Positions 12,733 through 26,873 are shown, counted from the stretch's first letter. The stretch is DNA of 32,000 nt from Trichodesmium erythraeum IMS101 (GCF_000014265.1 NC_008312.1:6750001-6782000); one strand, 5' to 3'. The notes: generated by a model not told the origin, from the letters alone. Made by a program: numbers and translations.

Positions 12733-12814
12733 CAATAAGTTGTAGAGGTCTAGATTGTATTTTGCTCTCAAGAGTTGATTTATTACTCTTTTACTATTAG
12801 ACCTCTCCAAAAAT

Positions 12815-13252: not shown

Positions 13253-13432
13253 AAAAGCTGTTAGGATTTTCTACAGTTTTTTTCGTACGGTAGATTTTAT
13301 TTAACCCATAAGTAACCTGGGAGAAGCAATACATATTTCCTCACTATACTATCTGCCACAGAAATTTAAAAATCTCTGTATTGTTTTCTCTTACTACCTA
13401 ACCTTAAGATCCGTTTTTGGAATTTAAGCTTT

Positions 13433-13469
13433 ATCAAAAAGTCAATGAATCCTGAATAGACTTTTTGAT
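13433..13469. terminator. perfect 11-bp hairpin downstream of the KamA-family gene (possible bidirectional terminator)
   Basis: ATCAAAAAGTC (13433-13443) pairs with GACTTTTTGAT (13459-13469) around a 15-nt loop. It lies 81-117 nt beyond the minus-strand stop at 13550. There is no clean U-tract after the stem, so the call is tentative. Confidence 0.35.
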
Positions 13470-13549
13470 CAGCTCAGTTCCTGTATTTTTGAGGAAAAAT
13501 AATAAATTGACATAAATAACCGTAGATTTATCAAAACGGTCATAAACCA

Positions 13550-14887
13550 TTAGAATAACTTTTGTCGGGTCAAAATCTCCTCAAGCTGGTTTTCATAGAA
13601 AAATTTATCTTCCCCAAAAGCAGGTTTGAGATTGTTCAACCAAGTAGCATCTGGATTAAAACTAGCAAAAAACGGTCGCTTACACCAGTCAGGGTCGCGA
13701 CCTTGCAAAAACGACAATACAAAAACCTTTTCCCCAGCAATTTCAGCAACACCATCAATAGCTACTTTTCCGGGCAAAGCTGACATTAATGGACCTCTTA
13801 TAGTTCTTGCTAAACCAGACACTTGTTTTACAGCCTCTCGGTAAATTTCCAAAACCCGCACCAAAGGAATTTCAAAATATTTCTTTGCACCTGTTTGTCG
13901 CTCCACAAACATATAATAAGGAATACAGCCTAAACTCACCTGCATTTGCAACATTTTTGCCCAAGTCTCAGCAGAATCATTGATATGGCGTACCACGGGC
14001 GCTTGAGTCCTAATCTGGGCCCCTGTAGAGCGAATCCGTCGAATTGCTTCAGTTGCAACTGGAGTATCCAGTTCCTGCCAATGTTCATAGTGAGCCATTA
14101 TTGCTAAATGTTTCCCCCGTTTGACTATTTTTTCAAATAAGCGCAAGGTATTATCAGCATCTTCATCGGTGACATAACGATAAGGCCAGAAAGAAATTGA
14201 TTTTGTCCCTATCCGAATTGTTTGGATGTGATCGAATTTAGCTTCCAGTAAAGGATCGATGTAAAGACTCAGTTGCCTTGCTTTCATAGTCATTGGATCC
14301 CCACCTGTAAATAAGACATCCCTGACTTCCTGATGTTGCTGTAAATATTGTTGAAACATTCCTGATTCACGGGTGGCAAATTTTAAACCTTCAAGCCCCA
14401 CAAATTGTGGCCAGCGAAAACAGAAAGTACAATAAGCATGGCAAGTTTGCCCCGCAGTCGGAAAAACTAAAACTGTTTCGCGATACTTGTGCTGAATTCC
14501 AGGAACAGGTTCGCTATTAAAGGTAGGAACGTTGTGCTGTTTTTGTCCTGACGGATGAGGGTTTAGTTGCTGACGAATCTTGTTAGCTGCCTGTTTTAAA
14601 ACAGTTTTAGGAGCATTTTCTGTTAAAAGCTGAATAATATGGTTATAGTCTTTTGACTCTAACATTTCTGGATGAGGGAAGGTCAACCGAAACATTGGAT
14701 CGTTAGGAACATTATTCCAATCAATTAATTGTTCTAATATATAATTATTAGTTAGGAAGGGTAAAACCTGAGCAACAGCTTTAATACCTAGGCGATCTTG
14801 CTCGGAGAAATTACTTAATTGGGGTATAGAATCTAGATTTTTAGCCCCATAAAAACGTATTTTTAAGGATTCAATTTTGCTACTCAT
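13550..14887 (-). CDS. KamA-family radical SAM protein (lysine 2,3-aminomutase-like)
   Basis: 445-aa ORF with an ATG start. The diagnostic KamA block is HKYRETVLVFPTAGQTCHAYCTFCFRWPQF (CxxxCxxC), followed by DVLFTGGDPM and the IPYYMF block. Confidence 0.92.
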   Translation of the reverse strand: MSSKIESLKIRFYGAKNLDSIPQLSNFSEQDRLGIKAVAQVLPFLTNNYILEQLIDWNNVPNDPMFRLTFPHPEMLESKDYNHIIQLLTENAPKTVLKQAANKIRQQLNPHPSGQKQHNVPTFNSEPVPGIQHKYRETVLVFPTAGQTCHAYCTFCFRWPQFVGLEGLKFATRESGMFQQYLQQHQEVRDVLFTGGDPMTMKARQLSLYIDPLLEAKFDHIQTIRIGTKSISFWPYRYVTDEDADNTLRLFEKIVKRGKHLAIMAHYEHWQELDTPVATEAIRRIRSTGAQIRTQAPVVRHINDSAETWAKMLQMQVSLGCIPYYMFVERQTGAKKYFEIPLVRVLEIYREAVKQVSGLARTIRGPLMSALPGKVAIDGVAEIAGEKVFVLSFLQGRDPDWCKRPFFASFNPDATWLNNLKPAFGEDKFFYENQLEEILTRQKLF

Positions 14888-15303
14888 AAGTTTTACAGCA
14901 CTTTCCTAGTTTATTAGTTATTACCATTATAACTTTTTAGCAGTTTTTAAGATAACACCATAATAAGCAAAAATGATTTATTTGAGGTTAATGCACAGGA
15001 ATTTTTTAACACAATTGATGTTATAAAATGTAAGTTCTCTCAACTTATACCCAACCCATTTCTGTATCCATCGCCTTTTTGAAATTTCCCTCTAATCTTT
15101 CTAGCTTCTGAACTTATTTTGACCTTACCTCCATAATAATAGCTCTGTTTAAACCCGATGAACATATCAAATATTTAGATGATTTTAATAGCTACTCAAT
15201 AAATATTACATATTATTTTTATTATAGGTGCAAAGAGATAAAATCTTAATCCCCAGTTTCTATTGTTCATCTCCATATACTATTTTCCCAAGTATAACAC
15301 CAA

Positions 15304-16785
15304 TTAATCTTTAACCAAAATACAACCTTTTCTTCCTGGCAAATATAACTCTAATTTACTAGCTTCATCTCCTCCTTGCCAGGAAATTTTACAACTACCA
15401 TAAACAACTTTATTAGGTTGAGATTTAAGCTTATTAAAAATAACATTTACTTTTGCTGCTTCTATACCAATGTTAACAGCTACAATAATTTCTTCCTCTT
15501 CTAAAATACGAGCAAAAATATAAACATTTCCCTCGGCAAACAACACTTCGTAATTACCAGTGCGCAAAGCTGAATATTCTTTTCTAATAGCAATTAACTG
15601 TTTATGATATTCCAGAACTTCACGATCCCATTTTTCAGTAGTAGGAAAACTACGACGACAGTCAGGGTCAAACTTACCCGGTAAACCTACCTCATCACCA
15701 TAATAAATACTTGGTGCTCCGGGAAAAGTCATTAACAACAGAGTCGCTAATTCAACACTTGCTTTATCCCCTTTAGCAATACTCAAAACTCTAGCTGTAT
15801 CATGACTATCTAATAAATTGAGTTGAGTTAATTGAATTTCCCAAGGGTAAAGTTGCAGTAACTCCTGCATTTTTTGACCGTATTCAACAGCAGATATAGC
15901 CGGATAAGCTACATAGTCACGGCCTTCAATTTGCTCAAGATCCACACGATCGCCTACAGTAAAAGCAATAGTTGGACCAGTAAATAAGTAATTCATCACT
16001 CCATCAAACTGAGTACCATCCAACCATTGTGCGCAGTTACTCCAGACTTCACCCACAATATATGCTTCTGGGTTAATAGCCTTAACGCGATCGCGAAATT
16101 CTTGCCAAAACCCGGGAGTCTTCACTTCAAAAGGTACATCCAACCGCCAACCATCAATACCAAATTTTAACCAATATTCTCCAATTTCCATAATGTATTC
16201 TTTGACCTCTGGGTTGTCATGATTAAAAACAGGTAAAGCACGGTTATCTAACCAACCCACATAATTAGCAGGTAAACTACCATCGTAAGCAGACAGAGGC
16301 CAATTTTCTATTTTGAACCAATGCAACCAGGGAGAATAAGGACCGTTTTCCAGGATATCGTTAAAGAAATAAAAACCCCGGCTAGCGTGGTTGAAAACTC
16401 CATCAAGAACCACTTTAATATTGCGATCGTGAGCAGTATCTATTAATACCCTTAAAGCCTCATTACCTCCTAAAATTGGATCGACTCGATAATAGTCATG
16501 AGTATGATAGCGGTGGTTACAGGTTGACTGAAAAATTGGTGTAAAGTAAATAGCTGTGATACCAAGTTCCTGAAGATAGTCAAGTTTTTTAATGACACCC
16601 CAGAGGTTCCCTCCTTTATAACCTTGAGGAGTAGGATATTCATCCCAAGGTTCTAGACTGCTGGGATACCAACCTTTGTCTATTCCTTTTCCAGTTTCAG
16701 TCGTTGGTTGAGCTTTAGCAAAACGATCTGGAAAAATTTGGTAAAATACAGCCTGTTTAACCCATTCTGGTGTTTGAATTTGCAT
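15304..16785 (-). CDS. glycoside hydrolase family 13 protein (alpha-amylase / neopullulanase-like)
   Basis: GH13 conserved regions are present: DGVFNHAS, GIDGWRLDVP, IVGEVW and LLDSHDTAR, plus an N-terminal FYQIFPDRF. The track ORF begins at TTG 16854. The first ATG (16785) gives MQIQTPEWVKQAVFYQIFPDRF and is preferred. Confidence 0.92.
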   Translation of the reverse strand: MQIQTPEWVKQAVFYQIFPDRFAKAQPTTETGKGIDKGWYPSSLEPWDEYPTPQGYKGGNLWGVIKKLDYLQELGITAIYFTPIFQSTCNHRYHTHDYYRVDPILGGNEALRVLIDTAHDRNIKVVLDGVFNHASRGFYFFNDILENGPYSPWLHWFKIENWPLSAYDGSLPANYVGWLDNRALPVFNHDNPEVKEYIMEIGEYWLKFGIDGWRLDVPFEVKTPGFWQEFRDRVKAINPEAYIVGEVWSNCAQWLDGTQFDGVMNYLFTGPTIAFTVGDRVDLEQIEGRDYVAYPAISAVEYGQKMQELLQLYPWEIQLTQLNLLDSHDTARVLSIAKGDKASVELATLLLMTFPGAPSIYYGDEVGLPGKFDPDCRRSFPTTEKWDREVLEYHKQLIAIRKEYSALRTGNYEVLFAEGNVYIFARILEEEEIIVAVNIGIEAAKVNVIFNKLKSQPNKVVYGSCKISWQGGDEASKLELYLPGRKGCILVKD

Positions 16786-16889
16786 AAATAATTTTCTCTT
16801 TGAACAAAAACCACTACTATTTTGACAGTCAATTAATCTTATAATATTATACAATTAAAGAGAAGTCAAAAGTTAAAAGTTAGACTTGA

Positions 16890-16912
16890 TCAGTAATTTC
16901 AGGAAATTATTT
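16890..16912 (+). repeat. direct repeat copy 1 (23/23 nt identical to 17263-17285)
   Basis: TCAGTAATTTCAGGAAATTATTT was read directly from the sequence. It is followed within 10 nt by a shared AGATAAGA block. Confidence 0.85.
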
Positions 16913-17262
16913 CACAGATAAGATGACTATTGTAGCCTAAGTTCATGAAATTTTATGGGAGAAATTAATATAACATTAAAATTTATGACAATTACTAGAC
17001 AATCAATTTATACTTTTCCTAAAATGAAACTCATATCCTTGAAATACTTGAATAAAAACTAAGTCCCCGGAGATATATTTTATAGATAAAAGTGATAGAT
17101 AAAAGTTAAAATATATGGGTTCTAAAATTGGTAAAGGAAACTGACGAAATCAATTCATAATTTATGATTACCAAACAATTGGGTCTCTATTGCCTTGCAG
17201 TCAGAAAAGTAAACTTTTCCCTTTATCCCTGCCCATCGAGGGAGTTCAACGCTTTAGCGCCC

Positions 17263-17285
17263 TCAGTAATTTCAGGAAATTATTT
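17263..17285 (+). repeat. direct repeat copy 2 (23/23 nt identical to 16890-16912)
   Basis: TCAGTAATTTCAGGAAATTATTT is followed about 20 nt later by AGATAAGA. It lies 81 nt upstream of the S8 peptidase start. Confidence 0.85.
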
Positions 17286-17365
17286 GATATCTGGATAATT
17301 AAGATAAGAGGATGTCAAATAAGTTTCACTATAGTTAATCTTTACAGAAAAATGAAAAACTAAAA

Positions 17366-19438
17366 ATGGTGAAACCACAAAACCAGAATTTGCCATCTAT
17401 TATTTATGCTGAAGTTTCTGTACGTTCTCAGAGTGGAGATTCACTTTTGAAAACATCAGAGATAATTACCAGCAAGAATGTAGAGCGGTTTTATTCAGAA
17501 CCTCAGTTAGTTAATGCCACCGCAGAAAAGTTGCGTGCTGAAGGTTTTAATGTTTTCTCTGAGGGACCAATAAGTATTACTATTGCTGCCCCTCCAGAAG
17601 TTTATGAACGGGTTTTTCAGACTAATATTATTACCCAAGAAATTCCCATAATTAAAGGAGGACTTTACCCAACAAAAGCAACATTTTTATCTGTTCCCAA
17701 CGCAGAAATATCAGGGTTAATAGATGCCTCTGGTAGCTCTTTAACTAACTTGATAGAAGGAGTGGCAATTAATGAACCTGTCTATAATACGGCCTCAGTT
17801 ACTCCTCCAAAACCCAACTATTGGCATCTCAATGTACCAGATGATATTTGTCAAGGCATAAATGCTCATCGACTTCATGACCAAGGTATCACAGGAAGTG
17901 GTGTCAAGGTAGTCATGGTTGATACTGGCTGGTATCGTCATCCTTTTTTTGAGTCTCATGGTTATCAAGGTAAGGTGGTGCTGGATGGGGGTGCAGTTAA
18001 CCCAGAATTAGATGAAAATGGTCACGGGACCGGGGAATCAGCTAATCTGTTTGCTATTGCACCAAATGTTGAGTTGACAATGGTTAAGGCTAAGTCAAAA
18101 AAATCTGCATTGGTTAATTCAGTAGGAGCATTTAAAAAAGCGGTTTCCCTAAATCCTGATATTATATCCTGTAGTTGGGGTGATGATCAAAGAGACCCTC
18201 CTCTTTCTGCTTTTGCTAAAGTAATGTCAGCGATAGTTTCAGATGCAGTAAATCGGGGAATTATTGTTGTTTTCTCCGCTGGAAATGGAGGCTGGAGTTT
18301 TCCTGGACAACATCCTGATGTGATTTCTGCTGGCGGTGTTTATATGTCTTCTGATGGCAAGTTGGAAGCTAGTGACTATGCTAGTGGGTTCAGGAGCAGA
18401 ATTTTTCCCCAACGAACTGTGCCTGATGTTTGTGGTTTAGTGGGCAAACTACCACGGGCAACTTATATTATGTTGCCAGTACAGCCGGGGAGTCTGATGG
18501 ATGTTACTCGTGGAGCACGAAATATTGGCTATCCTTATGGAGATGAGACTTTGCCGAAGGATGGTTGGGCTGTGTTTAGTGGTACATCTGCAGCAGCTCC
18601 TCAGTTGGCGGGTATTTGTGCTTTGATGAAGCAGGTATATCCTCAAATTTCACCCCAACAAGCTCGGGATTTTCTGAAAAAAACTGCTCGTGATATTTTT
18701 ACGGGGAAAAGTAGTTTGAGTACGGGAGGAAATCAGGCAAATGCTGGCGTGGATCTGGCAACTGGGTCTGGTTTAGCTGATGCTTTTCAGGCAACAATGA
18801 TGGCAGCTAAGGCTAGCGGCAAGACTATTTTAAATAGCACTCAATTAGCACAGCAACAACCAGAGAAATTTTTAGTTACAAATCAAATTCAAACAAAGGA
18901 GATTATTATGGACTGCAAACTTGGAAAATATTACGAAGAAATTCTTTGGGCTTTAGATAAAGCACTGCAAAATGTAGAAGGAGTTGAGGGTGAGTATCAG
19001 TTGGTTATTAGTCAGGCTAACTTGATTTCTCGCACACCAGCAATGAAGGCAGCATATCGTTTGAGGATGTTGCTAGAGCCAGTGTTATTATTACCAAAGG
19101 ATCCAGAAGATAAGCCCCCAAAGGATAAGGAGGAACATAATAATTTATATCAATGCCTTAAGAGTGGCGTTTCAGCTGCTGAAGGTTTATTGAGTATGAA
19201 GCAATATCAGGAAACTGCGTTAAATGGTCTTGTAAAAATAATTGATTATTTAAATGCTTCATGGTGGGAATTGAAAGATAAATCAGATGTGCAGTCGCGG
19301 GCAATTAAAGCTTTAGGGGAAATTAGTAATACTAATAATATCAATAGTCGATTAATCCCTAAAACTATATTAGATGGAGGAAGATGTTACTGTGAAACGG
19401 ATGAACAAGGAAACTGCTACCCGATATGCGAGGATTGA
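17366..19438 (+). CDS. S8 family (subtilisin-like) serine peptidase, leaderless, with extra C-terminal helical/Cys-tail domain
   Basis: 690-aa ORF with an ATG start. The catalytic motifs are Asp VKVVMVDTGW, His ENGHGTGESA and Ser FSGTSAAAPQLAG, with the oxyanion Asn in FSAGNGG. No N-terminal signal peptide is visible. Residues from about 515 to 690 lie outside the protease fold and end in CYCETDEQGNCYPICED. Confidence 0.92.
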   Translation: MVKPQNQNLPSIIYAEVSVRSQSGDSLLKTSEIITSKNVERFYSEPQLVNATAEKLRAEGFNVFSEGPISITIAAPPEVYERVFQTNIITQEIPIIKGGLYPTKATFLSVPNAEISGLIDASGSSLTNLIEGVAINEPVYNTASVTPPKPNYWHLNVPDDICQGINAHRLHDQGITGSGVKVVMVDTGWYRHPFFESHGYQGKVVLDGGAVNPELDENGHGTGESANLFAIAPNVELTMVKAKSKKSALVNSVGAFKKAVSLNPDIISCSWGDDQRDPPLSAFAKVMSAIVSDAVNRGIIVVFSAGNGGWSFPGQHPDVISAGGVYMSSDGKLEASDYASGFRSRIFPQRTVPDVCGLVGKLPRATYIMLPVQPGSLMDVTRGARNIGYPYGDETLPKDGWAVFSGTSAAAPQLAGICALMKQVYPQISPQQARDFLKKTARDIFTGKSSLSTGGNQANAGVDLATGSGLADAFQATMMAAKASGKTILNSTQLAQQQPEKFLVTNQIQTKEIIMDCKLGKYYEEILWALDKALQNVEGVEGEYQLVISQANLISRTPAMKAAYRLRMLLEPVLLLPKDPEDKPPKDKEEHNNLYQCLKSGVSAAEGLLSMKQYQETALNGLVKIIDYLNASWWELKDKSDVQSRAIKALGEISNTNNINSRLIPKTILDGGRCYCETDEQGNCYPICED
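19238..19257 (+). repeat. inverted repeat arm A (inside S8 gene 3' region)
   Basis: ATAATTGATTATTTAAATGC is identical in 19 of 20 positions to the reverse complement of 19468-19487. Confidence 0.85.
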
Positions 19439-19454
19439 AAACAATAAATTAGCT

Positions 19455-22010
19455 TTAGCTATAGTCCGCATCTAAATAATCAATTATCGAAACAAGTTCC
19501 TCCAAGAAAAAATCAGGTATTTGAACTTTATCTTTTTTAGCTAAACAGCATTCATGCAAAGCTTTTAGAAAGCCTACGCTAGAATTAGGTTGACCTGATA
19601 AAGTATGTACCTGTGTCAAAAAGTCACGCCATAAATTGCCATTATCCTGGTAAGTGTCGACTAGGTAAAGACTTGCAAGATACTCAGCTAAAGGATCGAG
19701 AGAATAACGAATTTCATTTTCCTCTGGTTTAATTGTCTTAATAATACCAAGGCGATATTCCAAATATTTTAACCTGGCTTCTGGCTCATCTCCACCCAGT
19801 TGAGCCAGTTGAGCGATTACAATATCTCGTGTAGCCCTTCCTGGTTGATATTTTTGTCTGATACATTCCCAAGCAACAACTTTAGCATCACGGTGTACAG
19901 ACGGATTATCCAAGTGATTCTCTGCTATATTATTTAGCCCGCTTAAATAATATAGCATAATGTCAGGAATATTACTTGGTAGATCATCTAAAATTTCATT
20001 CGTTTTAACTGCAATCATTTGTTCAGCGTAGAGTTTAGCCAACATAACAGTCATGTGACTATTACCTGCCATTGCTGAAAGCTTGCTACAGCCTTCAAAA
20101 AATTCTTGATTGTCGAATAAATCTCTTTTTCCCCGATGTACTAAGTATGTGTCCATAAAATCGGAAAGTCTATTACCTTCAATAGGCTTTAATTTGATTG
20201 TTGTTTTGTTTACACTTCCTAAGCTTTCGTCACGGCGAGATGTAACAACTAAAGCATTAACAGGAAAATCAGGTAATTCTGGTCGTATCTGATTTCTAGT
20301 GGTTTCGCTCATTTCTGAAAAGCGGTCAACAATAACTAGAAGGCGTCGCTTTCTCAGAAGCTGTTCCAACAATTCTTCAGACAAGGTATCTTCCTCATCA
20401 ACTAAATCTCGTAGGGCACCACGAATTGCTTCAAGAAAAACCTTTTTTCCTTTTTTGACTTCAAAATTCAATTCTTCTTCTAGTAAAATTGGCAACATCT
20501 GGTGTTTACATAAACGTTCTTCTGGAATATTAGACATTGCCCAATGAGCTATCTGACAAGCCAAACTTGTTTTTCCTGAGCCCCCTTCTCCGTAAATAAG
20601 TATGCATTCTTTTTGTTCTGCAAAGTTTCGTTGCAAGTCTTTTCCAGTTAATTGTGAAATAGATTTTTTACCTATATCAACAGGTATTCGAATATGAACT
20701 TTTCGCTGCTCAACAGTAGGCTTCTTTTCAAATTCATGATTAGCTTTGTCAATTTTTAATTTAACCCATTCATCAAGCACCCTAGGATGGTAGTGAATAT
20801 CAAACAAAAATTTTCTTAATGAAATCTTGATTCCTCCCAAAATTTCAGGCAATGGAATATCAGTGTAACGTTGTAAAAAGTTATTAATTCGCAACAACTG
20901 AATCGGATTAATCAAAAATAAAAATGAAATTGATAAAAACCATAGGAATAAAACAAATAACGGAATAGATATTGTCCGGTGAGTAGCTATTAAATTAACA
21001 ATTATTTCAAATGGCAGATTTGGTGTTGTTTTTTTAATAATTGTAAGCGTATTTTTTAAATCAACTTCTAATTGATTTATTTCTTCTATTTTGGAGAATT
21101 TATCTTGATTATCCTGAAAAAACTTTAAAACTGTTTCTAAGCCACTTATAGCATCTTTCCTTTCTTGGGAAATAAGCAATGGTGCTCTGCTAGGAAGTAA
21201 ATTGGCTATTTTTTTTAGAGATTCAAGGGATTTTTTCAGAACTTCTTCATCAGTTTCTTGTAAAAGATTGATCAGAGTTTCTACCGCTAGTTTAACATCT
21301 CTACCACTACTTCCTAGTGAATGAGCTGCTCCTAATCTTACCTGCCAATTATTTGTTTTGTTAGTTAGTTTTTTAAGTTTAACAAGAGTTTTATTTAACC
21401 TTTCTGAACTTTCTATTTTTTCAATAGCAGAGGCAATAGCACTAGTAGCACGAAGACGCACATCATCATCATCATAATTTTCTAAAGTATAAATTACAGC
21501 TTCAACAGTTTCTGGCTCTGTTGGCGAAATTTGCATTAGAGCATGAATGCTATAAAAAACAATAGGCTGATACTGATTTGTTTTTAATTCCTGAATCAAA
21601 GGTTTAACAGCAGCTTTAGCTTCTGAACCAATTTGACCCAAAGTTCTAGCAGCAAACCAACGACTTTTTACATCTTTTTGGTCATCTTGTAGTACCTTAG
21701 TCAAAGGTTGAACAGCTTTTTTAGCTGAAGGGCCTATTTCTCCTAAAACTTTAATAGCAGCTTGACTATCTCTTAATTGACCCCTATTTAATATTATGAT
21801 TAATCCATCAATATCATTAGTTTTCTTGATTTTTTGGATTGCTTCTTTATCGTTGCTAGGGTTATCATCATTTAACTGGTCAATATATGGTTGAATATTA
21901 GGAGCGATCGCCTCTTGTGACCAAGTATTTCTATTCATCAACAAAGACAAAGAAATACCAATTAAAATAGCACACCCCAACCTAGATAAATTTAGCCTGC
22001 GATACCCCAT
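19455..22010 (-). CDS. membrane-spanning HEAT-repeat / NACHT (STAND) NTPase
   Basis: The N-terminus is a charged segment plus a hydrophobic anchor (MGYRRLNLSRLGCAILIGISLSLLM). About 300 aa of HEAT-like repeats follow (AIKVLGEIGPSAKKAVQPL, ARTLGQIGSEAKAAVKPL). A second hydrophobic segment is ISIPLFVLFLWFLSISFLFLI. Then come Walker A YGEGGSGKTS, Walker B RLLVIVDRFSE and the NACHT-typical ALVVTSRR. The track ORF starts at TTG 22031. ATG 22010, with GGAG 9 nt upstream, is preferred. Confidence 0.9.
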   Translation of the reverse strand: MGYRRLNLSRLGCAILIGISLSLLMNRNTWSQEAIAPNIQPYIDQLNDDNPSNDKEAIQKIKKTNDIDGLIIILNRGQLRDSQAAIKVLGEIGPSAKKAVQPLTKVLQDDQKDVKSRWFAARTLGQIGSEAKAAVKPLIQELKTNQYQPIVFYSIHALMQISPTEPETVEAVIYTLENYDDDDVRLRATSAIASAIEKIESSERLNKTLVKLKKLTNKTNNWQVRLGAAHSLGSSGRDVKLAVETLINLLQETDEEVLKKSLESLKKIANLLPSRAPLLISQERKDAISGLETVLKFFQDNQDKFSKIEEINQLEVDLKNTLTIIKKTTPNLPFEIIVNLIATHRTISIPLFVLFLWFLSISFLFLINPIQLLRINNFLQRYTDIPLPEILGGIKISLRKFLFDIHYHPRVLDEWVKLKIDKANHEFEKKPTVEQRKVHIRIPVDIGKKSISQLTGKDLQRNFAEQKECILIYGEGGSGKTSLACQIAHWAMSNIPEERLCKHQMLPILLEEELNFEVKKGKKVFLEAIRGALRDLVDEEDTLSEELLEQLLRKRRLLVIVDRFSEMSETTRNQIRPELPDFPVNALVVTSRRDESLGSVNKTTIKLKPIEGNRLSDFMDTYLVHRGKRDLFDNQEFFEGCSKLSAMAGNSHMTVMLAKLYAEQMIAVKTNEILDDLPSNIPDIMLYYLSGLNNIAENHLDNPSVHRDAKVVAWECIRQKYQPGRATRDIVIAQLAQLGGDEPEARLKYLEYRLGIIKTIKPEENEIRYSLDPLAEYLASLYLVDTYQDNGNLWRDFLTQVHTLSGQPNSSVGFLKALHECCLAKKDKVQIPDFFLEELVSIIDYLDADYS
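19468..19487 (-). repeat. inverted repeat arm B (inside NACHT gene 3' end)
   Basis: The plus strand reads GCATCTAAATAATCAATTAT. Its reverse complement is ATAATTGATTATTTAGATGC. Confidence 0.85.
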
Positions 22011-22329
22011 GATTAAATTCTCCAATTTCAATTAATCCATAATTTTATATAGTCAACAATTTTATGGACATTTATTCTAACTAACTAGCTTTATAAAATT
22101 TTACTCATAATAGCTTAACGACAAAGCTCACTATCGAAATAATATTCTCAGTGAAAATATTAACTTATTTTAGGTAATAAATGCTAAATTATCTAACCCT
22201 AAATCCACATAATCTGAAAACCATGAAACTTCACTTTGTTCTTCAGTCTACTCGGAAAATATTTCTACTATATAAACTCTCGTTATGGGGATTAATCTTA
22301 CCTCTAAAATATTTTCTACTTTTTTTTTC

Positions 22330-22785
22330 GACGCTGAATTAACAATTCCAATATCTTTCTATTATTGATTTTATCACAGTTTTAAATATTTCAATCCTAC
22401 TCCAGTTAGCCGAGCTTTATCTTCACAAACAATTATTGAATCATTATTTTTTTCTAATAATTGAATAAGCTTTTGGCGATAAGAATTGAAACCACTGCTA
22501 ACCCCCTTAACAATATGCTTGATTTAATAACTTTTAGCTATACAGTAAAACTTCATTCTTTCTAATTGGAAATCTAAATTAGATTTATTTGCCCAACTAG
22601 ATACACAAGTATAGATAGATATACCTTGAGAATTTTGCTTGTCAGTGCTGACAATAATTGTAGCGATAAGAAGTTGAGAGGTTTTAATTTCACCTCACTT
22701 CCACATTCTCCAAGCAGTTTGGTCAGATATTCCCAAATTTTTAGCACCATCAGATAGCCTCTCATTGACAGTAAGAATATAACTA
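22330..22785 (-). pseudogene. tnpA: decayed IS607-family serine recombinase (tnpA) gene
   Basis: One minus-strand frame reads LSDGAKNLGISDQTAWRMWK*GEIKTSQLLIATIIVSTDKQNSQGISIYTCVSSWANKSNLDFQLERMKFYCIAKSY*IKHIVKGVSSGFNSYRQKLIQLLEKNNDSIIVCEDKARLTGVGLKYLK. This matches a MerR-like HTH plus a resolvase core (cf. IYARVSS..Q...L.RQ; GSGLN..R..L..LL; IVVEHKDRLTRFG). It has two in-frame stops, the catalytic-region Arg is replaced (YTCVSS), and it has no start codon. Confidence 0.6.
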
Positions 22786-23250
22786 TCTTTGCTCTAACTT
22801 ATATAACTTTAATTTAGAATATATTTATCTATTCTAACTAAAAAGCATGACAATACAAAACCCCTGAGACTAACTCTTCTGAAAAATCAACAATACAGAA
22901 AACTTCTAATTTTTGACTTCATCAACAGCGATCATCTATCCATAACCAAAAATTAACCTGATCATATAAACACTTACATCAAGACACTAATTGTACTGAA
23001 AATATCTCAAATAATTACCAAAAATACACTATGTATAGTGCTAATACCTAAATCCTGCATATCTCAAAATACAGCAGTTCCTATCAATAGCACGGACACT
23101 CTTGCCCTTCTGAATTCAGTCACAACAATAATATAGGGGTAAATAGCCATTCCCTCCTACTTCTGACTTCTCCTATATTTACCCCCTTGTCAAGGATCCC
23201 TAACCGTTGGAAACTTAGAGTATGAGTGTTTTTGGCAGTGAGGTTTAACC

Positions 23251-24537
23251 GTGAAAAACGTACTAAGTATAATTCTAGGCGGTGGCGCAGGTACCCGTTT
23301 ATATCCCTTAACAAAACTACGGGCCAAGCCTGCAGTGCCCCTAGCAGGAAAATATCGTTTAATAGATATTCCTATAAGTAATTGCATAAACTCAGAAATC
23401 CAGAAAATTTATGTTTTGACCCAATTTAACTCAGCTTCTCTAAACCGCCATATCACTCGTACCTATAACTTCTCAGGTTTCAGTGATGGTTTTGTCGAAG
23501 TTCTAGCAGCTCAACAAACTAAAGATAATCCAGAGTGGTTTCAAGGAACAGCAGATGCTGTCCGTAAATATATATGGTTATTCAAAGAGTGGGATATTGA
23601 TTATTATCTAATTCTCTCTGGAGACCATCTCTACCGTATGGACTACCGAGACTTTGTCCAACGCCATATCGACACCAAGGCAGATATCACCCTTTCTGTC
23701 TTGCCTATTGATGAAGCACGGGCCTCCGAGTTTGGCGTCATGAAAATTGATAACTCAGGTCGAATTGTTGAATTTAGTGAAAAACCGAAAGGTAATGCCC
23801 TTAAAGCTATGGCAGTTGATACTTCTATTTTAGGAGTCAGTCCAGAAATAGCTACAAAACAACCTTATATTGCTTCTATGGGAATTTATGTATTTAATAA
23901 AGATGCAATGATCAAACTTATAGAAGATTCAGAGGATACAGATTTTGGTAAGGAAATTTTACCCAAGTCGGCTCAATCTTATAATCTTCAAGCCTACCCA
24001 TTCCAAGGTTACTGGGAAGACATCGGAACCATCAAATCATTTTATGAAGCTAATTTGGCTTTGACTCAACAGCCTCAGCCACCCTTTAGCTTTTATGATG
24101 AACAAGCCCCTATCTATACCCGCTCTCGTTATTTACCTCCGAGCAAACTTTTGGACTGTGAGATTACAGAGTCAATTGTGGGAGAAGGTTGTATTCTTAA
24201 AAAATGTCGGATTGACCATTGTGTCTTAGGAGTGCGATCGCGTATAGAAGCTAATTGTATAATTCAAGATTCTCTGCTAATGGGTTCAGATTTCTATGAA
24301 TCTCCTACAGAACGTCGATATGGCCTAAAAAAAGGTTCTGTACCTTTGGGTATTGGTGCTGAAACGAAAATTCGTGGAGCAATTATTGACAAAAATGCCC
24401 GCATTGGTTGTAATGTCCAAATAATCAATAAGGACAATGTAGAAGAAGCCCAACGTGAGGAGGAAGGGTTTATCATTCGCAGTGGTATTGTTGTTGTTTT
24501 GAAAAATGCTACTATTCCCGATGGTACAGTGATTTAG
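23251..24537 (+). CDS. glgC: glucose-1-phosphate adenylyltransferase
   Basis: 428-aa ORF with a GTG start. The N-terminus [45 protein letters not shown] is the canonical GlgC signature. The C-terminal left-handed beta-helix region is present. Confidence 0.95.
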
Positions 24538-24566
24538 TAAATGTTGTTAGTATTAGTAGTTCAGTT

Positions 24567-24597
24567 GATTAGTAGTTATGACTAAATACTACTAATC
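24567..24597 (+). terminator. perfect 10-bp hairpin 30 nt after glgC stop
   Basis: GATTAGTAGT (24567-24576) pairs with ACTACTAATC (24588-24597) around an 11-nt loop. The downstream sequence is AT-rich but has no clean T-run, so the call is tentative. Confidence 0.4.
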
Positions 24598-24619
24598 ACT
24601 AAATACTAATTACTAATTT

Positions 24620-25093
24620 ATGACCAGAATAATTATTTTGATTAGAATACCAGCTAGTGGTAAATCCACTCTAGCCATGAAAATAGTTTCTAGATATTCT
24701 CAGTATCAACTAATTTTTACTAATGCTATCTGTGCTAAATTATTTAGTGACCGAGCAATTCAGGAGCTTTGGTTAAAAGCTTGGCAGCAATAACAGCAAC
24801 AGTCTCACCAAGCTGTCAGCAAAACATCTCTAGCCATATATAATGCTACTAATACAGAATGTCGGGGACTCAAATAACTTATTAATCTTGCTAGAGAAAA
24901 TGGATTTAGCCACATACCTGGTTTATTGCTTGACAAATGATTAAAATTATGCATATAAAAGAATAAATAACGACAGCGCCAAGTATCAGAAGAAGTAATA
25001 ATGAAAATGTAGCGCTAGTTAACAGATACTTCTCCAATTTGTGACAAAGGGTGGGATAAAATTCAACGAATTACTAGGAATTACAAAATCTAA
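24620..25093 (+). pseudogene. decayed AAA-type ATP-binding protein / predicted kinase (AAA_33-like) gene
   Basis: A single frame from ATG 24620 reads MTRIIILIRIPASGKSTLAMK...TNAICAKLFSDRAIQELWLKAWQQ*QQQSHQAVSKTSLAIYNATNTECRGLK*LINLARENGFSHIPGLLLDK*LKLCI*KNK*RQRQVSEEVIMKM*R*LTD...GWDKIQRITR. It has a P-loop kinase layout (degenerate Walker A IPASGKST, then the YDATN-like block IYNATN). It carries about seven in-frame stops and no frameshift. Confidence 0.6.
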
Positions 25094-25859
25094 ATAACAT
25101 TGATTTCTAAATATTTCTCATGATTTCTCATTATTTATTAGGAAAAAAAGATTTCTACTTAGACTAAATTAAACATATCTATTACTAACTGTTTAGTCAT
25201 AAATGATTTCAAATTGGGGAAACAAAAAAGTTGATTACTAATAACTAAAAATTTGGGTACGGCAATTGCTATTAGTCTTTCAGGAAAAACCGAACTTAGC
25301 TAAATGTTAATCTTATGATAAATTTAATAATGAAGGAAATCAACTTTAATATTGACTATAGTGTATTATTTACCAATATCAAAGGATAGTTTTTACCATA
25401 ACATAAAAAGTCTTGAGGGGATAGTAGAGAAAAGTATCGTCAACCTCGATCTGAGGCTTAAAACATACTCATATCTGAGAAAGCATAACTATTAAACCGT
25501 AATAATCGATATTTAACCACTACCTATTTAGGGCGCTGAGGTTAGTACATCCCTAAATTTAAACTTACTCAGAAATTACTTTTCAATTTTAACTGATCCA
25601 TAGGGCTATACATATTACCCAAGTAAACTATTATAATGCTATTAATATAGTATTTACAAATTAGAAAATTTTATTTTTTTTACTACTAAAAACTATCTTA
25701 TTATCTTCCATTTTTTCTAAAAATCACTACAGATATTACCTTAAACATTTAACTTTATGTTCATCTCTCAAATGTCAACTTCAACTCATTACTAAAATAA
25801 AAAAAATCATATATTAACATTAAGTAACTACTCAAAATATAAGATAAGGATGAGAATAA

Positions 25860-26873
25860 ATGGCGAAAACTGATTTTAAAGACTATTACTCAATTCTAGG
25901 CTTAACCAAAAGTGCTAGTGCAGAAGAAATAAAAAAAGCTTACCGGAAGTTAGCTCGTAAGTATCACCCAGATATGAAGCCTGGCGATCGCAAAGCAGAA
26001 GCTCGTTTCAAAGAAGTTAATGAAGCTTATGAAGTTTTATCAGACTCAGAAAAACGCCAAAAATATGATCAATTTGGTCAATACTGGAAACAGGTAGGCT
26101 CTAGTGGTAGTGGATGGCCTGGTGGGAATAGTGGTAGAAATGTAGATTTTAGTGAATTTGACTTTAGTCAGTATGCCTCCTTTGAAGATTTTATCAATGC
26201 TTTATTAGGACGTGGTGGTAACCCTGGTAGTAGTAATAGCGGTAGAAGAAAAAATAATAGCTACAAAACAAATACAAGTTGGCCAGATGGATTTAATAAT
26301 GGGTATTATAATCCTTCTAGTTTTAATAATCCCAATTGGGCAACCTCCCTAAATTTAGAAGCTGAAATTACCCTGACTTTTGCAGAAGCTTTTCGGGGAA
26401 CACAAAAACGTATCGGTAGTGGAGAAGTTTCAATTCCCCCTGGAGTAAAATCAGGAAGTAAGATCAGAGTTAAGGGTAAAGGTAAACTAGACCAATATAC
26501 TCAACAAAAAGGAGATTTGTATTTAAAAGTAGAAATTCAGTCTCATTCTTTCTACCAGTTTGAGGGAGATAATTTACTTTGTGAAGTGCCAATAACTCCC
26601 GATGAAGCCGTATTAGGCACATCTATTAAAGTACCAACTCCTGATGGGATGGTTAATGTTAATATTCCTGCAGGTATTCGTTCTGGTCAGTCTTTGCGGT
26701 TACGGGGTAAAGGATGGCCTAAACCTAAATCAGAGGAACGTACTGACCAATTAGTAAGAATTATTATTACTGCTCCCAAAAATATTAGTTCTTTAGAAAG
26801 AGAATGTTATGAGAAAATAACAGCTAATCGTACATTTGATCCTCGTAGTCATTTAAAAAATGTATCTCTTTAG
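25860..26873 (+). CDS. J-domain co-chaperone, CbpA/DnaJ type II-like (no zinc finger)
   Basis: The J domain is [35 protein letters not shown]-rich linker follows, then the DnaJ C-terminal domains ([34 protein letters not shown]). There are no CxxCxGxG repeats. Confidence 0.9.

What the first reader, a model, noticed from the sequence alone, without database searches (positions are those of the whole stretch)
17366..22031. Convergent pair: leaderless S8 subtilase with an extra C-terminal domain and a transmembrane HEAT-NACHT STAND NTPase; candidate undescribed sensor/effector module
Seen: the 690-aa ORF has an intact S8 triad (DTG, HGTG, GTSAAAP) but no signal peptide, so it is predicted to be cytoplasmic. 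It carries about 175 extra C-terminal residues that are helical, include one HEAT-like unit (RAIKALGEIS) and end in a 4-Cys tail. Sixteen bp away, on the opposite strand, lies an 850-aa protein. It has an RR-containing N-terminus plus a hydrophobic anchor, about 300 aa of HEAT-like repeats, a second long hydrophobic segment, then a NACHT P-loop (GEGGSGKTS, LLVIVDRFSE, VVTSRR) and a helical C-terminal region of about 300 aa. Positive-inside reasoning places the HEAT array outside the cytoplasmic membrane and the NACHT domain inside, making it a membrane-spanning STAND receptor. No recognisable effector domain (nuclease, TIR, protease and so on) is visible on the NACHT protein. Established: STAND/NACHT NTPases (Avs, bNACHT) act as conflict sensors, and an ATPase plus S8 protease gene pair is known as the IetAS defence system. 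Inference: the protease could be the effector or partner of the STAND protein. The combination of an extracytoplasmic HEAT sensor, a NACHT domain and a leaderless subtilase in convergent layout does not match any described system I recognise. An IS607 recombinase relic lies just beyond the NACHT gene.
Basis: partly seen in the sequence, partly recalled or inferred. Interest (0 to 1): 0.8.

Follow-up and report, generated by a model that had tools for sequence, protein, structure and literature searches.

The report
Membrane-spanning NACHT sensor with partner subtilase
A leaderless pro-subtilase and a membrane-spanning NLR-type ATPase whose repeat array faces outside the cytoplasm form a conserved gene pair in filamentous cyanobacteria, and in Trichodesmium the sensor half is swapped as a cassette between otherwise 99%-identical genomes, which is the pattern expected of an undescribed immune or self/non-self recognition locus.

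Summary
17366-19438(+) encodes a 690-aa S8 subtilase with an intact triad, no signal peptide, a prodomain-like N-domain, a C-terminal extension of about two HEAT repeats and a Cys-rich tail. Sixteen bp away, 19455-22010(-) encodes signal peptide, HEAT array, one TM helix, then NACHT and NCH4.

The pairing is not chance. All 15 loci of this S8 clade with readable downstream DNA have the convergent NACHT partner, in at least 7 different genomic contexts. The S8-linked NACHT proteins form one clade (bootstrap 86/100). A sister S8 clade pairs 5/5 with a different single-pass STAND (nSTAND1, TM, pentapeptide). However, 77 of 80 other HEAT-TM-NACHT genes have no S8.

New finding: against T. erythraeum 21-75 the flanks are 99% identical, but about 2.9 kb is replaced by a 20-70% identical allele. 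This block covers the S8 C-extension plus the whole mature NACHT protein. Alleles are mosaic and shared across species.

Best reading (inferred): a transmembrane NLR-like surveillance module with a trans-acting pro-subtilase. It is a new variant of the STAND-plus-peptidase conflict systems. It is not IetAS, Avs or a tested bNACHT. The effector role, the ligand and the compartment sensed remain untested.

The parts
17366..19438 (+). S8 subtilase gene (690 aa), leaderless
   Evidence: ORF. Pfam Peptidase_S8 E 7.5e-26. Catalytic D186 (17921-17923), H220 (18023-18025), N307 (18284-18286) and S408 (18587-18589) are invariant in 35 homologues. No hydrophobic segment.
17366..17860 (+). N-terminal prodomain-like domain (res 1-165)
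   Evidence: AlphaFold pLDDT ~87-94 over most of residues 11-90, lower beyond, with a beta-alpha-beta-beta-alpha-beta core. The best Foldseek hits span it: intact pro-kumamolisin 1t1e (575 columns), fervidolysin 1r6v, unautoprocessed pro-subtilisin E 3whi. No Pfam Inhibitor_I9 hit.
17861..18820 (+). S8 catalytic domain (res 166-485)
   Evidence: Mean identity is 67% among 9 partnered orthologues.
18926..19321 (+). C-terminal extension (res ~521-652): helix/hairpin preface plus about two PBS-type HEAT repeats
   Evidence: Helices 523-651, pLDDT 86-92 over ~561-650. HMM positions 47-128 match HEAT repeats. Encoded as a separate 158-aa HEAT_2 gene in Leptodesmis and as a 147-aa stand-alone protein P0241.
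19322..19435 (+). Cys-rich tail (CxC...C...C), sequence-variable
   Evidence: Median 4 Cys in the last 45 aa in 35 homologues, against 0.46 expected. Alignment. Low-confidence beta-hairpins.
19439..19454 (.). 16-bp 3'-3' spacer, no terminator
   Evidence: Sequence. No terminator-like site. Folding z-scores -0.71 and 0.04. Spacers in the 15 clade-A loci run from an overlap of 26 bp to 400 bp, not counting Leptodesmis, where two genes are interposed.
19455..22010 (-). Gene for signal peptide - HEAT array - TM - NACHT - NCH4 protein (851 aa from ATG 22010; ORF extends to TTG 22031)
   Evidence: AlphaFold mean pLDDT 85.5.
21921..22010 (-). Signal-peptide-like N-terminus (res 1-30: MGYRRLNLSR / LGCAILIGISLSLLM / NRNTWS|Q)
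   Evidence: Hydropathy and the n/h/c pattern recur in the 120 homologues. An SP-like N-terminus is present in 111 of 150 family representatives.
21021..21908 (-). HEAT (alphaRep/PBS-lyase type) array, predicted extracytoplasmic (res ~35-330)
   Evidence: Pfam HEAT_2. PDB profile hits to alphaRep and PP2A-A. Foldseek. Least conserved region: 31% mean identity, against 60% for the NOD.
20910..20978 (-). Single transmembrane helix (res 345-367)
   Evidence: Kyte-Doolittle 2.65. Predicted helix 345-367. A TM directly upstream of the NTPase module occurs in 137 of 150 representatives.
19701..20900 (-). Cytoplasmic juxtamembrane segment plus NACHT NOD module (res 371-770). Walker A 20565-20591, Walker B 20313-20342, sensor-1 TSR 20232-20249
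   Evidence: Pfam NACHT at the gathering score. Invariant G479, K480, D562, T590, R592, with E566 at least 90% conserved. Foldseek matches to NOD2 5irm_C (502 columns) and NLRP3 9dh3 (520 columns).
19458..19700 (-). C-terminal helical region including NCH4 (res 771-851)
   Evidence: Pfam NCH4 E 9.4e-8. Helices 772-848.
18935..21880 (.). Allelic variable cassette: S8 C-extension + tail + spacer + mature NACHT protein
   Evidence: Against T. erythraeum 21-75 (L171), window 12001-18962 is 98.9% identical and 21865-27811 is 99.4% identical, while the interior is 20-70% identical. Identity falls within one 60-bp step at each breakpoint. The right breakpoint lies at ~21865-21872 in 4 of 4 comparisons; the left lies at ~18913-18962 or ~19324.
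21865..22205 (-). Constant 5' region (promoter/5'UTR + signal peptide + first ~14 mature residues) shared by divergent alleles and a paralogue
   Evidence: 84-99% DNA identity in L171, L169, L174 and L009. The paralogue locus L173 shares 21913-22205 at 91.8% although its HEAT region is 24% identical.
22052..23065 (-). Insertion carrying a decayed IS607-type serine recombinase remnant (~22381-22779); not part of the module
   Evidence: Absent from the L169 intergenic region. Translation shows an HTH plus resolvase-like remnant with stops. Pfam Resolvase E 0.0023, below cut-off.

Best explanation
The two genes form one functional module: a transmembrane NLR-like surveillance system.

The NACHT protein is a type-I membrane receptor. 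Its signal peptide is cleaved, and its polymorphic HEAT solenoid sits in the periplasm (or the thylakoid lumen). One TM helix connects it to a cytoplasmic NACHT-NCH4 NTPase.

Proposed sequence of events:
1. A non-self or danger ligand binds the ectodomain.
2. Binding licenses NTP-dependent oligomerisation of the NACHT modules at the membrane.
3. The oligomer recruits and/or activates the leaderless S8 zymogen. This protein has an N-terminal prodomain, an active triad, and a C-terminal HEAT/Cys extension acting as docking module. Activation would be by induced proximity and autoprocessing, as caspases are activated on apoptosomes and inflammasomes.
4. The freed subtilase cleaves cellular targets, causing arrest or death of the affected cell and protecting the filament or colony.

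What is shown: the domain anatomy, intact catalytic and NTPase motifs, conserved convergent linkage, partner swapping to a second kind of single-pass STAND, and a hyper-polymorphic recombining sensor cassette.

What is inferred: the topology (hydropathy only), physical interaction, direction of signalling, zymogen activation, the ligand, and the cell-death outcome.
For: 1. Linkage. All 15 distinct loci of this S8 clade with readable downstream DNA have the convergent HEAT-TM-NACHT-NCH4 gene. The contexts differ: amylase/glgC, ABC transporter/UvrD, amine oxidase/ECF sigma, S51/HicAB, CobW/Cas6, PIN and ClpB.
2. The 12 S8-linked NACHT proteins in the tree are monophyletic among 90 family members, NJ bootstrap 86/100.
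3. A sister clade of long-form S8 pairs 5 of 5 times with nSTAND1-TM-pentapeptide proteins (nSTAND1 E 2e-84 to 1e-107). Each has one TM between the NTPase and the repeats. The protease therefore follows single-pass STAND receptors of two unrelated classes.
4. Those nSTAND1 partners share ~25-aa terminal motifs with an upstream small helical protein or a caspase (C14 E 1.8e-19). This is the layout of Bell/BASS cell-death signalling (bioRxiv 10.1101/2020.01.06.895854).
5. Short-form relatives without the C-extension are not next to STANDs.
6. The catalytic triad and Walker A/B residues are invariant or nearly so.
7. The N-domain superposes on prodomains of unprocessed subtilase/sedolisin zymogens. 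The NOD superposes on NOD2 and NLRP3.
8. The cassette covering the S8 C-extension and the mature NACHT protein is replaced between genomes with 99%-identical flanks. It is mosaic, and segments are 99-100% identical across species whose background is 90-95%. This fits diversifying or balancing selection on a recognition locus.
9. The ectodomain is the fastest-evolving part of the NACHT protein: 31% mean identity against 60% for the NOD.
10. Precedents exist for leaderless S8 proteases as NLR-linked death executors (PMC8851545) and for a NACHT sensor next to an S8 with C-terminal repeats (PMC10907252).
Against: - 77 of 80 other HEAT-TM-NACHT-NCH4 genes have no S8 and no common neighbour. The receptor may therefore signal without the protease.
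- The genes are convergent, not co-transcribed.
- No adaptor domain shared by the two proteins was detected. No EAD or Death-like Pfam hit was found, and there is no general shared terminal motif: cognate score 24.7 against non-cognate 23.5.
- In one comparison (L174) the C-extension stays the same class while the NACHT protein is swapped, so co-variation is imperfect.
- In the window the locus sits among housekeeping genes, not in a defence island.
- PADLOC gives only weak generic hits.
- In the nSTAND1 loci another effector (Bell-like protein or caspase) is already present, so S8 need not be the executioner.
- Topology rests on hydropathy and signal-peptide rules, not on a dedicated predictor or an experiment.
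- No expression or phenotype data are available.
Confidence: 0.5

Rival explanations
1. The receptor is self-sufficient and the S8 protease is a regulator rather than the effector. It could process the juxtamembrane segment to release or activate the NOD. Alternatively it could degrade spuriously activated receptor to prevent autoimmunity.
For: - Most family members lack S8, so output must be possible without it. One route would be clustering of the TM helices or unlinked effectors.
- The nSTAND1 partners already have a Bell-like or caspase effector.
- The convergent layout with overlapping 3' ends and no terminator would allow antagonistic expression.
Against: - The window's NACHT protein has no recognisable effector.
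- The S8 protein carries a prodomain typical of latent proteases awaiting activation.
- Precedents place S8 or caspases downstream of NLRs (PMC8851545, PMC7159879).
Confidence: 0.17
2. The module is a physiological or developmental signalling device of filamentous cyanobacteria, not an immune system. It might monitor the envelope or periplasm, mediate inter-cell signals along the filament, or control cell death during bloom decline or necridia formation.
For: - The chromosomal position (amylase - pair - glgC) is stable across Trichodesmium, Okeania, Planktothrix and related contigs.
- The neighbours in the window are housekeeping genes.
- The pair was not found on plasmids.
- The distribution is centred on filamentous taxa.
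Against: - Extreme allelic divergence with sharp recombination breakpoints and cross-species allele sharing is not expected for a sensor of a conserved endogenous signal.
- Several other contexts hold Cas6, PIN/HicAB/HigB toxin-antitoxin genes, RloB and caspases.
- The sister systems carry death-signalling motifs.
Confidence: 0.18
3. The S8 protein is exported by a non-classical route and works with or on the HEAT ectodomain outside the cytoplasm.
For: - The class of the S8 C-extension tracks the class of the partner's HEAT ectodomain in 5 of 6 Trichodesmium/Okeania loci, better than it tracks the NOD.
- The Cys-rich tail and the prodomain are typical of secreted subtilases.
- The C-extension is the same repeat type as the ectodomain.
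- A paralogue of the N-domain carries a lipoprotein signal in soil-bacterial operons.
Against: - None of the 35 homologues shows an N-terminal leader in the alignment, and the window protein has no hydrophobic segment at all.
- Three Cys in the catalytic domain are invariant.
- Short-form relatives sit in operons with radical-SAM enzymes, which are cytoplasmic.
- Four Cys can equally form a cytoplasmic zinc knuckle.
- The co-variation rests on n=6 non-independent loci, with one exception.
Confidence: 0.07
4. The adjacency is inherited synteny without a functional link.
For: Nine of the 15 loci share the same amylase/glgC flanks and are therefore not independent.
Against: - The pair persists in at least 6 other flanking contexts across Nostocales, Leptolyngbyales and Oscillatoriales.
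- The same S8 architecture is paired 5 of 5 times with a different STAND.
- Relatives without the C-extension are never paired.
Confidence: 0.03

Closest known systems
Bacterial NACHT / NLR-related proteins (bNACHT; Kibby et al., bioRxiv 10.1101/2022.07.19.500537)
   Same: NACHT NOD module with a C-terminal helical domain of the NCH series. Enriched in multicellular cyanobacteria. That paper lists HEAT-type sensors and 'TM region' types predicted to sense periplasmic or intramembrane signals.
   Different: - The repeat sensor here is N-terminal, carries a signal peptide and is predicted extracytoplasmic. In that paper repeat sensors are C-terminal and cytoplasmic.
- There is no fused effector, and the partner is a trans-encoded S8.
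- Walker B reads DRFSE rather than D[GAS]hDE.
- No PADLOC bNACHT model matched.
- No S8 partner, NCH4 entry or N-terminal-HEAT architecture was found in the held text or supplement of that paper.
STAND/NTPase conflict systems of multicellular bacteria with trans-acting peptidases and adaptor domains (Kaur et al. 2020 PMC7159879; 2021 PMC8195603). Also the NACHT-CLec sensor next to an S8-WD40 peptidase in Thiohalocapsa (PMC10907252)
   Same: An NTPase sensor plus a separately encoded peptidase that carries a non-catalytic C-terminal protein-interaction module. Predicted apoptosome-like activation. Found in filamentous or multicellular bacteria.
   Different: - No EAD or Death-like adaptor is shared by the two proteins.
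- The sensor is membrane-spanning.
- The variation mechanism is allelic cassette recombination, not a DGR.
- The genes are convergent.
Fungal HET-Q2-type subtilases and S8/NACHT/WD40 NLRs controlling gasdermin HET-Q1 (PMC8851545)
   Same: A leaderless cytoplasmic S8 protease acts as executor in an NLR-linked, polymorphic non-self recognition and cell-death pathway.
   Different: - In fungi the S8 is fused to the NLR or stands alone, and its substrate gasdermin is encoded next door.
- Here no gasdermin-like gene is adjacent.
- Here the NLR is a membrane receptor.
IetAS
   Same: An ATPase gene next to an S8 protease gene.
   Different: Neither protein matched an Iet model in PADLOC. The only hits were the generic 'subtilase' PDLC03014 at E 1.9e-6 and HEAT-ARM models. 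The ATPase here is a TM-anchored NACHT STAND.
Bell/BASS - NLR amyloid signalling pairs (Dyrka et al., bioRxiv 10.1101/2020.01.06.895854)
   Same: In the sister loci, nSTAND1 receptors share an N-terminal ~25-aa motif with the C-terminus of the upstream small helical protein or caspase. These same loci hold the long-form S8.
   Different: The window's pair has no such motif pair. The HEAT-TM-NACHT N-terminus is secreted, so amyloid templating from the N-terminus is impossible.
Apoptosome / inflammasome (established knowledge)
   Same: A STAND oligomer acts as a platform that activates a latent protease zymogen.
   Different: The protease is a subtilase, not a caspase. No CARD or PYD adaptor is present. 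The receptor senses across a membrane.

Membership tests
Peptidase S8 (subtilase) | Asp-His-Ser triad in that order plus oxyanion Asn; profile match above threshold | tested here: met
   PF00082 91.5 bits against a cut-off of 21.8. D186, H220, N307 and S408 are invariant. Subtilisin BPN' profile hits at E 3e-22.
Peptidase S8 (subtilase) | N-terminal propeptide (zymogen) of I9 type | tested here: inconclusive
   No Pfam I9 hit. However, the model's N-domain is included in 493-575-column Foldseek alignments to unprocessed pro-kumamolisin, fervidolysin and pro-subtilisin E.
NACHT clade of STAND NTPases | Walker A GxxGxGK[ST] and Walker B Asp | tested here: met
   GEGGSGKTS and LLVIVD. G479, K480 and D562 are invariant in 124 sequences.
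NACHT clade of STAND NTPases | D[GAS]hDE signature after Walker B (as stated in 10.1101/2022.07.19.500537) | tested here: not met
   The sequence is D-R-F-S-E and the family consensus is D-x-[FL]-S-E. Only the last acidic residue is kept.
NACHT clade of STAND NTPases | Profile match, NOD fold (NBD-HD-WHD), NACHT-associated C-terminal domain | tested here: met
   PF05729 at 26.7 bits, equal to the gathering score and therefore borderline. NCH4 E 9.4e-8. Foldseek matches to NOD2 and NLRP3 over 502-520 columns. The TSR sensor-1 motif is conserved, with T590 and R592 invariant.
Experimentally defined antiphage bNACHT / Avs systems | Match to the system's profile; fused N-terminal effector; cytoplasmic C-terminal sensor; protection against phage | tested here: not met
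   No bNACHT or Avs model in PADLOC at E<=0.1. No fused effector. The sensor is N-terminal and extracytoplasmic. Phage protection is not testable here.
IetAS | IetA-type ATPase and IetS-type S8 matching the PADLOC models | tested here: not met
   No Iet model matched either protein.
EAD/Death-like adaptor-coupled STAND-peptidase systems (Kaur et al.) | The same adaptor domain present on both the NTPase and the peptidase | tested here: not met
   No EAD, bDLD or Trypco Pfam hit on either protein. The C-extension HMM matches the partner only in its generic HEAT repeats. No shared terminal motif is general to the pairs.
Bell/BASS-NLR amyloid signalling | Short motif shared by the effector C-terminus and the NLR N-terminus in adjacent genes | tested here: not met
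   Met for the sister nSTAND1 loci L007, L105, L107 and L109. Not met for the window pair, where the N-terminus is a signal peptide.
Single-pass transmembrane receptor topology (type I) | Cleavable signal peptide, one TM, ATP-dependent domain on the cytoplasmic side | tested here: inconclusive
   Hydropathy, the n/h/c pattern with TWS|Q, and family-wide recurrence support it. No SignalP or DeepTMHMM run and no experiment was available.
Polymorphic recognition locus (balancing/diversifying selection) | Highly divergent alleles at one locus within near-identical backgrounds, sharp breakpoints, trans-species sharing | tested here: met
   Flanks are 98.9% and 99.4% identical while the cassette is 20-70% identical. 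There are at least 3 HEAT classes and 4 NOD classes among 6 loci. Cassette segments are 99-100% identical between species with a 90-95% background. Formal population-genetic tests were not run.

The most novel reading that the evidence does not exclude
This would be a prokaryotic transmembrane NLR: a pattern-recognition or allorecognition receptor that reads non-self outside the cytoplasm and relays it across the membrane. Candidate ligands are phage parts or toxins crossing the periplasm, or kin-specific molecules in the shared periplasm of a filament. The polymorphic HEAT ectodomain would do the reading. Across the membrane, a NACHT oligomer would switch on a cytosolic pro-subtilase. The locus would be kept as several ancient, recombining alleles that cross species boundaries in Trichodesmium. 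That would make it a bacterial counterpart of fungal het loci and of receptor-plus-NLR immunity.
Probability: 0.3. Interest if true: 0.9.

Novelty: new variant of a known kind. Interest (0 to 1): 0.78.

Why it matters
Characterised bacterial STAND/NLR sensors (Avs, bNACHT) detect ligands inside the cytoplasm. A NACHT receptor with an extracytoplasmic sensor would show that NLR-type switches can act as transmembrane receptors. It would also give a route for sensing infection or non-self before the cytoplasm is breached.

The pairing with a leaderless pro-subtilase extends the 'NLR activates a latent protease' logic from caspases to subtilases in bacteria. The parallel in fungi is HET-Q2.

The cassette polymorphism in Trichodesmium, a globally important bloom-forming nitrogen fixer known for programmed cell death, gives a concrete and testable candidate locus for strain-specific phage resistance or colony-level self/non-self discrimination. 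It also provides natural allele swaps, between the window-type allele and the 21-75-type allele, for experiments.

Tried and rejected
- IetAS, Avs or bNACHT membership: rejected on PADLOC.
- EAD/Death-like adaptor on the S8 C-extension: no Pfam hit. The extension is simply about two HEAT repeats.
- A conserved alternative partner for the 77 unpaired HEAT-TM-NACHT genes: ORF clustering found only lineage-specific synteny. The neighbours included LeuA, GNAT, Uma2, a CHASE2-like kinase and an NB-ARC protein.
- A shared terminal peptide motif between S8 and NACHT as a general rule: only the window allele has one (IIDYL[ND]A, 29-nt inverted repeat). Cognate and non-cognate scores are equal elsewhere.
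- DGR or in-locus repeats as the diversification mechanism: no long repeats in 17300-22100.
- Bidirectional terminator at the junction: none found.
- Link to glycogen metabolism (amylase, glgC and GlgB flanks): not sustained outside one syntenic group plus one Nostoc locus.
- Plasmid or mobile-element carriage: the pair was not found in PLSDB.
- ~850-aa 'convergent partners' of short-form S8 in high-GC contigs: these were antisense ORF artefacts.
- Searching with the C-extension alone gave only 2 hits.
- Literature: no paper found describes this pair.
- A strict co-variation claim between C-extension and NACHT was dropped after L174 showed an unswapped C-extension with a swapped NACHT.

Full report
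**Observation**

The window has low GC (about 28-43% per kb). Its flanks are 98.9% and 99.4% identical to Trichodesmium erythraeum 21-75. It carries the two ORFs exactly as described.

The plus-strand gene 17366-19438 encodes a 690-aa protein:
- Residues 177-455 match Peptidase_S8 (E 7.5e-26).
- D186, H220, N307 and S408 are invariant in 35 homologues.
- No 19-residue window reaches a Kyte-Doolittle mean of 1.6. The homologue alignment begins at residue 1 with no N-terminal leader. The protein is therefore leaderless. This is an inference from hydropathy; no dedicated predictor was run.

Sixteen bp downstream (19439-19454) the minus-strand gene ends. Its likely start is ATG 22010, which has a GGAG 8 nt upstream, giving 851 aa. 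Pfam finds HEAT_2 (E 5.7e-19), NACHT at exactly the gathering score (26.7 bits) and the NACHT-associated NCH4 domain (E 9.4e-8). It finds no effector domain. NCBIfam and PADLOC add nothing specific.

**Anatomy of the S8 protein**

The AlphaFold model built on 35 homologues has mean pLDDT 70.5. It shows four parts:
- A confident N-terminal alpha/beta domain.
- The subtilisin core.
- A helical C-terminal extension (helices 523-651, pLDDT 86-92).
- A low-confidence Cys tail.

Foldseek's best matches are intact pro-kumamolisin, fervidolysin and unautoprocessed pro-subtilisin E, with 493-575 aligned columns. Mature subtilisins align over about 330 columns. The N-domain is therefore prodomain-like, and the protein is probably made as a zymogen (inferred).

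An HMM of the extension matches PBS-type HEAT repeats through its positions 47-128. The extension is thus a short unique preface plus about two HEAT repeats.

The tail varies in sequence but is consistently Cys-rich. The median is 4 Cys in the last 45 residues, against 0.46 expected.

**Anatomy of the NACHT protein**

The model has pLDDT 85.5 and shows, in order:
- An N-terminal helix.
- A HEAT solenoid (residues ~40-327).
- One long hydrophobic helix (345-367).
- A NOD module, which Foldseek aligns to NOD2 (502 columns) and NLRP3 (520 columns).
- Terminal helices.

G479, K480, D562, T590 and R592 are invariant in 124 family members; E566 is at least 90% conserved there and invariant in the 26-sequence set. 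The NACHT D[GAS]hDE signature reads DRFSE, so the protein is a divergent NACHT.

The N-terminus has the n/h/c layout of a Sec signal with a TWS|Q site. The same layout recurs in nearly all 120 homologues. The RR is confined to Trichodesmium and Okeania.

A phmmer scan with the cytoplasmic module against 1.84 billion representatives found 836 clusters at E<=1e-30. Among the best 150:
- 137 have a strongly hydrophobic segment immediately upstream of the module.
- 111 have a signal-like N-terminus.

An NTPase must face the cytoplasm. A single TM therefore places the HEAT array outside, in the periplasm or the thylakoid lumen (inferred). Some relatives replace HEAT by FGE-sulfatase, LRR or OmpA-type domains.

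**Is the adjacency meaningful?**

Neighbourhoods were read for S8 relatives and for NACHT relatives. All 15 distinct loci of this S8 clade with readable downstream DNA have the convergent NACHT gene:
- the window
- L001
- L002 (same as L003 and L091)
- L004 (same as L005)
- L006
- L009
- L010
- L011 (same as L092)
- L089
- L090
- L169
- L171
- L172
- L174
- L175

Nine of these share amylase/glgC flanks. The others sit in unrelated contexts.

In Leptodesmis the S8 lacks the extension. There the extension is a separate 158-aa HEAT_2 gene beside the NACHT gene.

The converse does not hold. In a scan of species-representative genomes, only 3 of the 80 best NACHT-family loci have an S8 within 6 kb. 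The other 77 have heterogeneous neighbours. In a neighbour-joining tree of the cytoplasmic 500 residues, the 12 S8-linked proteins form one clade (12/12, bootstrap 86/100).

**The partner swap**

A sister clade of long-form S8 has the same N-domain, core, extension and Cys tail. In 5 of 5 loci it is convergent with a different STAND protein, nSTAND1 plus pentapeptide repeats (E 2e-84 to 1e-107). Each of these has exactly one strong TM segment between the NTPase and the repeats, with K/R on the NTPase side. The long-form subtilase therefore accompanies single-pass STAND receptors of two unrelated classes and opposite polarity, 20 of 20 times in all.

The nSTAND1 N-termini share ~25-residue motifs with the C-terminus of the gene just upstream. 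That gene is a small helical protein in L007, L105 and L107, and a C14 caspase in L109. This is the Bell/BASS-NLR layout described for filamentous bacteria (10.1101/2020.01.06.895854).

Short-form relatives have the N-domain and core only. They are common in soil metagenomes and Bacillus megaplasmids and are not next to STANDs. In 27 loci a B12-type radical-SAM gene follows the S8. Many of these also carry a small N-domain paralogue, one example of which has a lipoprotein signal, and in about 10 a 2OG-oxygenase-like gene follows.

**The allelic cassette**

Protein comparisons showed that the Trichodesmium MAG_R04 S8 is 92-95% identical to the window's through the linker but only 37% identical in the extension. 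Its NACHT partner is 82% identical in the signal peptide, 34% in the HEAT array and 46% in the NOD.

At DNA level against T. erythraeum 21-75, at the same locus (amylase-S8-NACHT-glgC-DnaJ):
- Window 12001-18962 is 98.9% identical.
- Window 21865-27811 is 99.4% identical.
- The interior (~18935-21880) is 20-70% identical.
- Identity collapses within one 60-bp step at each end.

The left breakpoint is at the start of the extension (S8 codon ~525-533). The right breakpoint is just after the signal peptide (NACHT codon ~42-48). The right breakpoint recurs in 4 of 4 comparisons. The left one is at ~18913-18962 in four comparisons (L171, L169, L170, L009) and at ~19324 in one (L174), where the extension is not co-swapped.

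Among six Trichodesmium/Okeania-type loci the extension, HEAT array and NOD fall into partly independent classes.

MAG_R04 and 21-75 differ by 5-10% in background. Yet they are 99-100% identical in the extension, the NACHT C-terminus and the HEAT/TM part, with a ~700-bp patch of 68-86% identity inside the NOD. Alleles are therefore mosaic and cross species boundaries.

A paralogue elsewhere (L173, no S8) shares the promoter and signal-peptide segment at 91.8% identity but little else.

Both allele classes appear in independent assemblies, so this is not an assembly artefact.

**Mechanism**

The best-supported reading is a transmembrane NLR-like surveillance module. A polymorphic ectodomain senses something outside the cytoplasm. 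The NACHT module oligomerises. The latent subtilase is docked through its HEAT/Cys extension and activated, and proteolysis arrests or kills the cell.

The linkage, the motifs, the partner swap and the polymorphism are shown. Topology, docking, activation, ligand and outcome are inferred.

Points against:
- Most family members lack S8.
- The genes are convergent, with no terminator between them.
- No shared adaptor was detected.
- The context in the window is housekeeping.
- The nSTAND1 loci already have another effector.

Four rivals were considered: S8 as regulator of a self-sufficient receptor; a non-immune signalling role; an exported S8 acting on the ectodomain, prompted by the co-variation of extension class with HEAT class; and mere synteny.

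**Comparison with what is known**

The NACHT-NCH4 family is catalogued at domain level, and TM-type bacterial NACHTs have been mentioned in general terms. STAND sensors with trans-acting peptidases are a predicted theme (PMC7159879). A NACHT-CLec sensor beside an S8-WD40 peptidase has been noted (PMC10907252). Leaderless S8 proteases execute NLR-linked death in fungi (PMC8851545).

No paper I found describes any of the following:
- This pair.
- The extracytoplasmic HEAT sensor architecture as a system.
- The swap to nSTAND1-TM-pentapeptide.
- The Trichodesmium cassette.

The pair is not IetAS, Avs or a tested bNACHT by profile. I therefore rate it a new variant of a known kind. Interest is high because of the transmembrane NLR topology and the natural allele swaps.

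Noticed in passing
window 22052-23065 (remnant ~22381-22779, minus strand): A 1,014-bp insertion relative to Trichodesmium MAG_R04 carries a stop-riddled MerR-HTH plus serine-recombinase (IS607-like) remnant. It is shared at 99% identity with T. erythraeum 21-75. The Pfam Resolvase hit is only E 0.0023.
   Followed up: partly
L105 10826-11263(-), L107 10498-10956(-), L007 12510-12911(-), L109 10574-11620(-) and the nSTAND1 genes downstream of them: The nSTAND1-TM-pentapeptide partners of the sister S8 clade share a ~25-aa motif (for example GQAIGQMxGGxAxG, or ISGGFNQxGWxVxGxVIQ). The motif lies at the C-terminus of the upstream small helical protein or C14 caspase. This is the Bell/BASS-type amyloid-signalling layout, so these loci are three-gene systems.
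   Followed up: partly
L133 2871-7918 and 26 other metagenome loci (L095, L117, L120, L123, L129, L135, L143, L146, L148 and others): In 27 loci from mostly high-GC soil contigs a B12-binding radical-SAM gene (~630 aa) follows the short-form S8. Many of these loci also carry a small paralogue of the S8 N-domain, and L133's copy has a lipoprotein signal. In about 10 a ~220-aa 2OG-oxygenase/HalD-like gene follows. This may be a peptide-modification operon.
   Followed up: partly
L173 (ENA k119_1080436) against window 21913-22205: A paralogous HEAT-TM-NACHT gene at another locus (next to an AP endonuclease and an IS630 transposase, no S8) shares the promoter, 5'UTR and signal-peptide segment at 91.8% DNA identity. 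The rest of the protein is 17-45% identical. This looks like a constant 'handle' for cassette exchange.
   Followed up: partly
window 19229-19257 and 19468-19496: A 29-nt inverted repeat (83% complementary) straddles the 3'-3' junction. [quoted passage not shown] It is present only in this allele.
   Followed up: yes
L006 (Leptodesmis sichuanensis CP075171.1) 8001-13806: The S8 gene lacks the extension. A 335-aa gene with no Pfam match and a separate 158-aa HEAT_2 gene (the extension) lie between it and the convergent NACHT gene. A Trypco1 gene lies just beyond. This shows the extension is an autonomous module.
   Followed up: partly
window 15304-16854 and 23251-24537; L004, L009, L090, L169, L171, L174, L175; L007 5347-7641: Glycogen-metabolism genes flank the pair in the Oscillatoriales-type loci: an alpha-amylase-family gene upstream and glgC downstream. 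GlgB precedes the S8 in Nostoc sp. HK-01. This is probably synteny, because the other contexts lack these genes.
   Followed up: partly
NC_010631.1 265548-266972 and NZ_CP040291.1 117983-119536 (Nostoc plasmids); P0228, P0232, P0237: Relatives of the cytoplasmic NACHT-NCH4 module are joined to FGE-sulfatase (SUMF1) domains instead of HEAT. FGE-sulfatase is the sensor type that DGRs diversify in other STAND systems. Some of these relatives are on large Nostoc plasmids.
   Followed up: no
window 28715-29416 against L169 10425-11918: Trichodesmium MAG_R04 has a PPK2 polyphosphate kinase gene between the ABC ATPase and DUF218 genes. The window has only ~700 bp there.
   Followed up: no
L002 1341-4796 and L004 4895-6274: Further STAND genes lie within 3-7 kb of the pair: NNH2-NACHT-HEAT in the Nostocaceae MAG, and HTH_VMAP-M9/NB-ARC in Planktothrix. 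In Planktothrix, HigB and PIN toxin-antitoxin genes are nearby.
   Followed up: no
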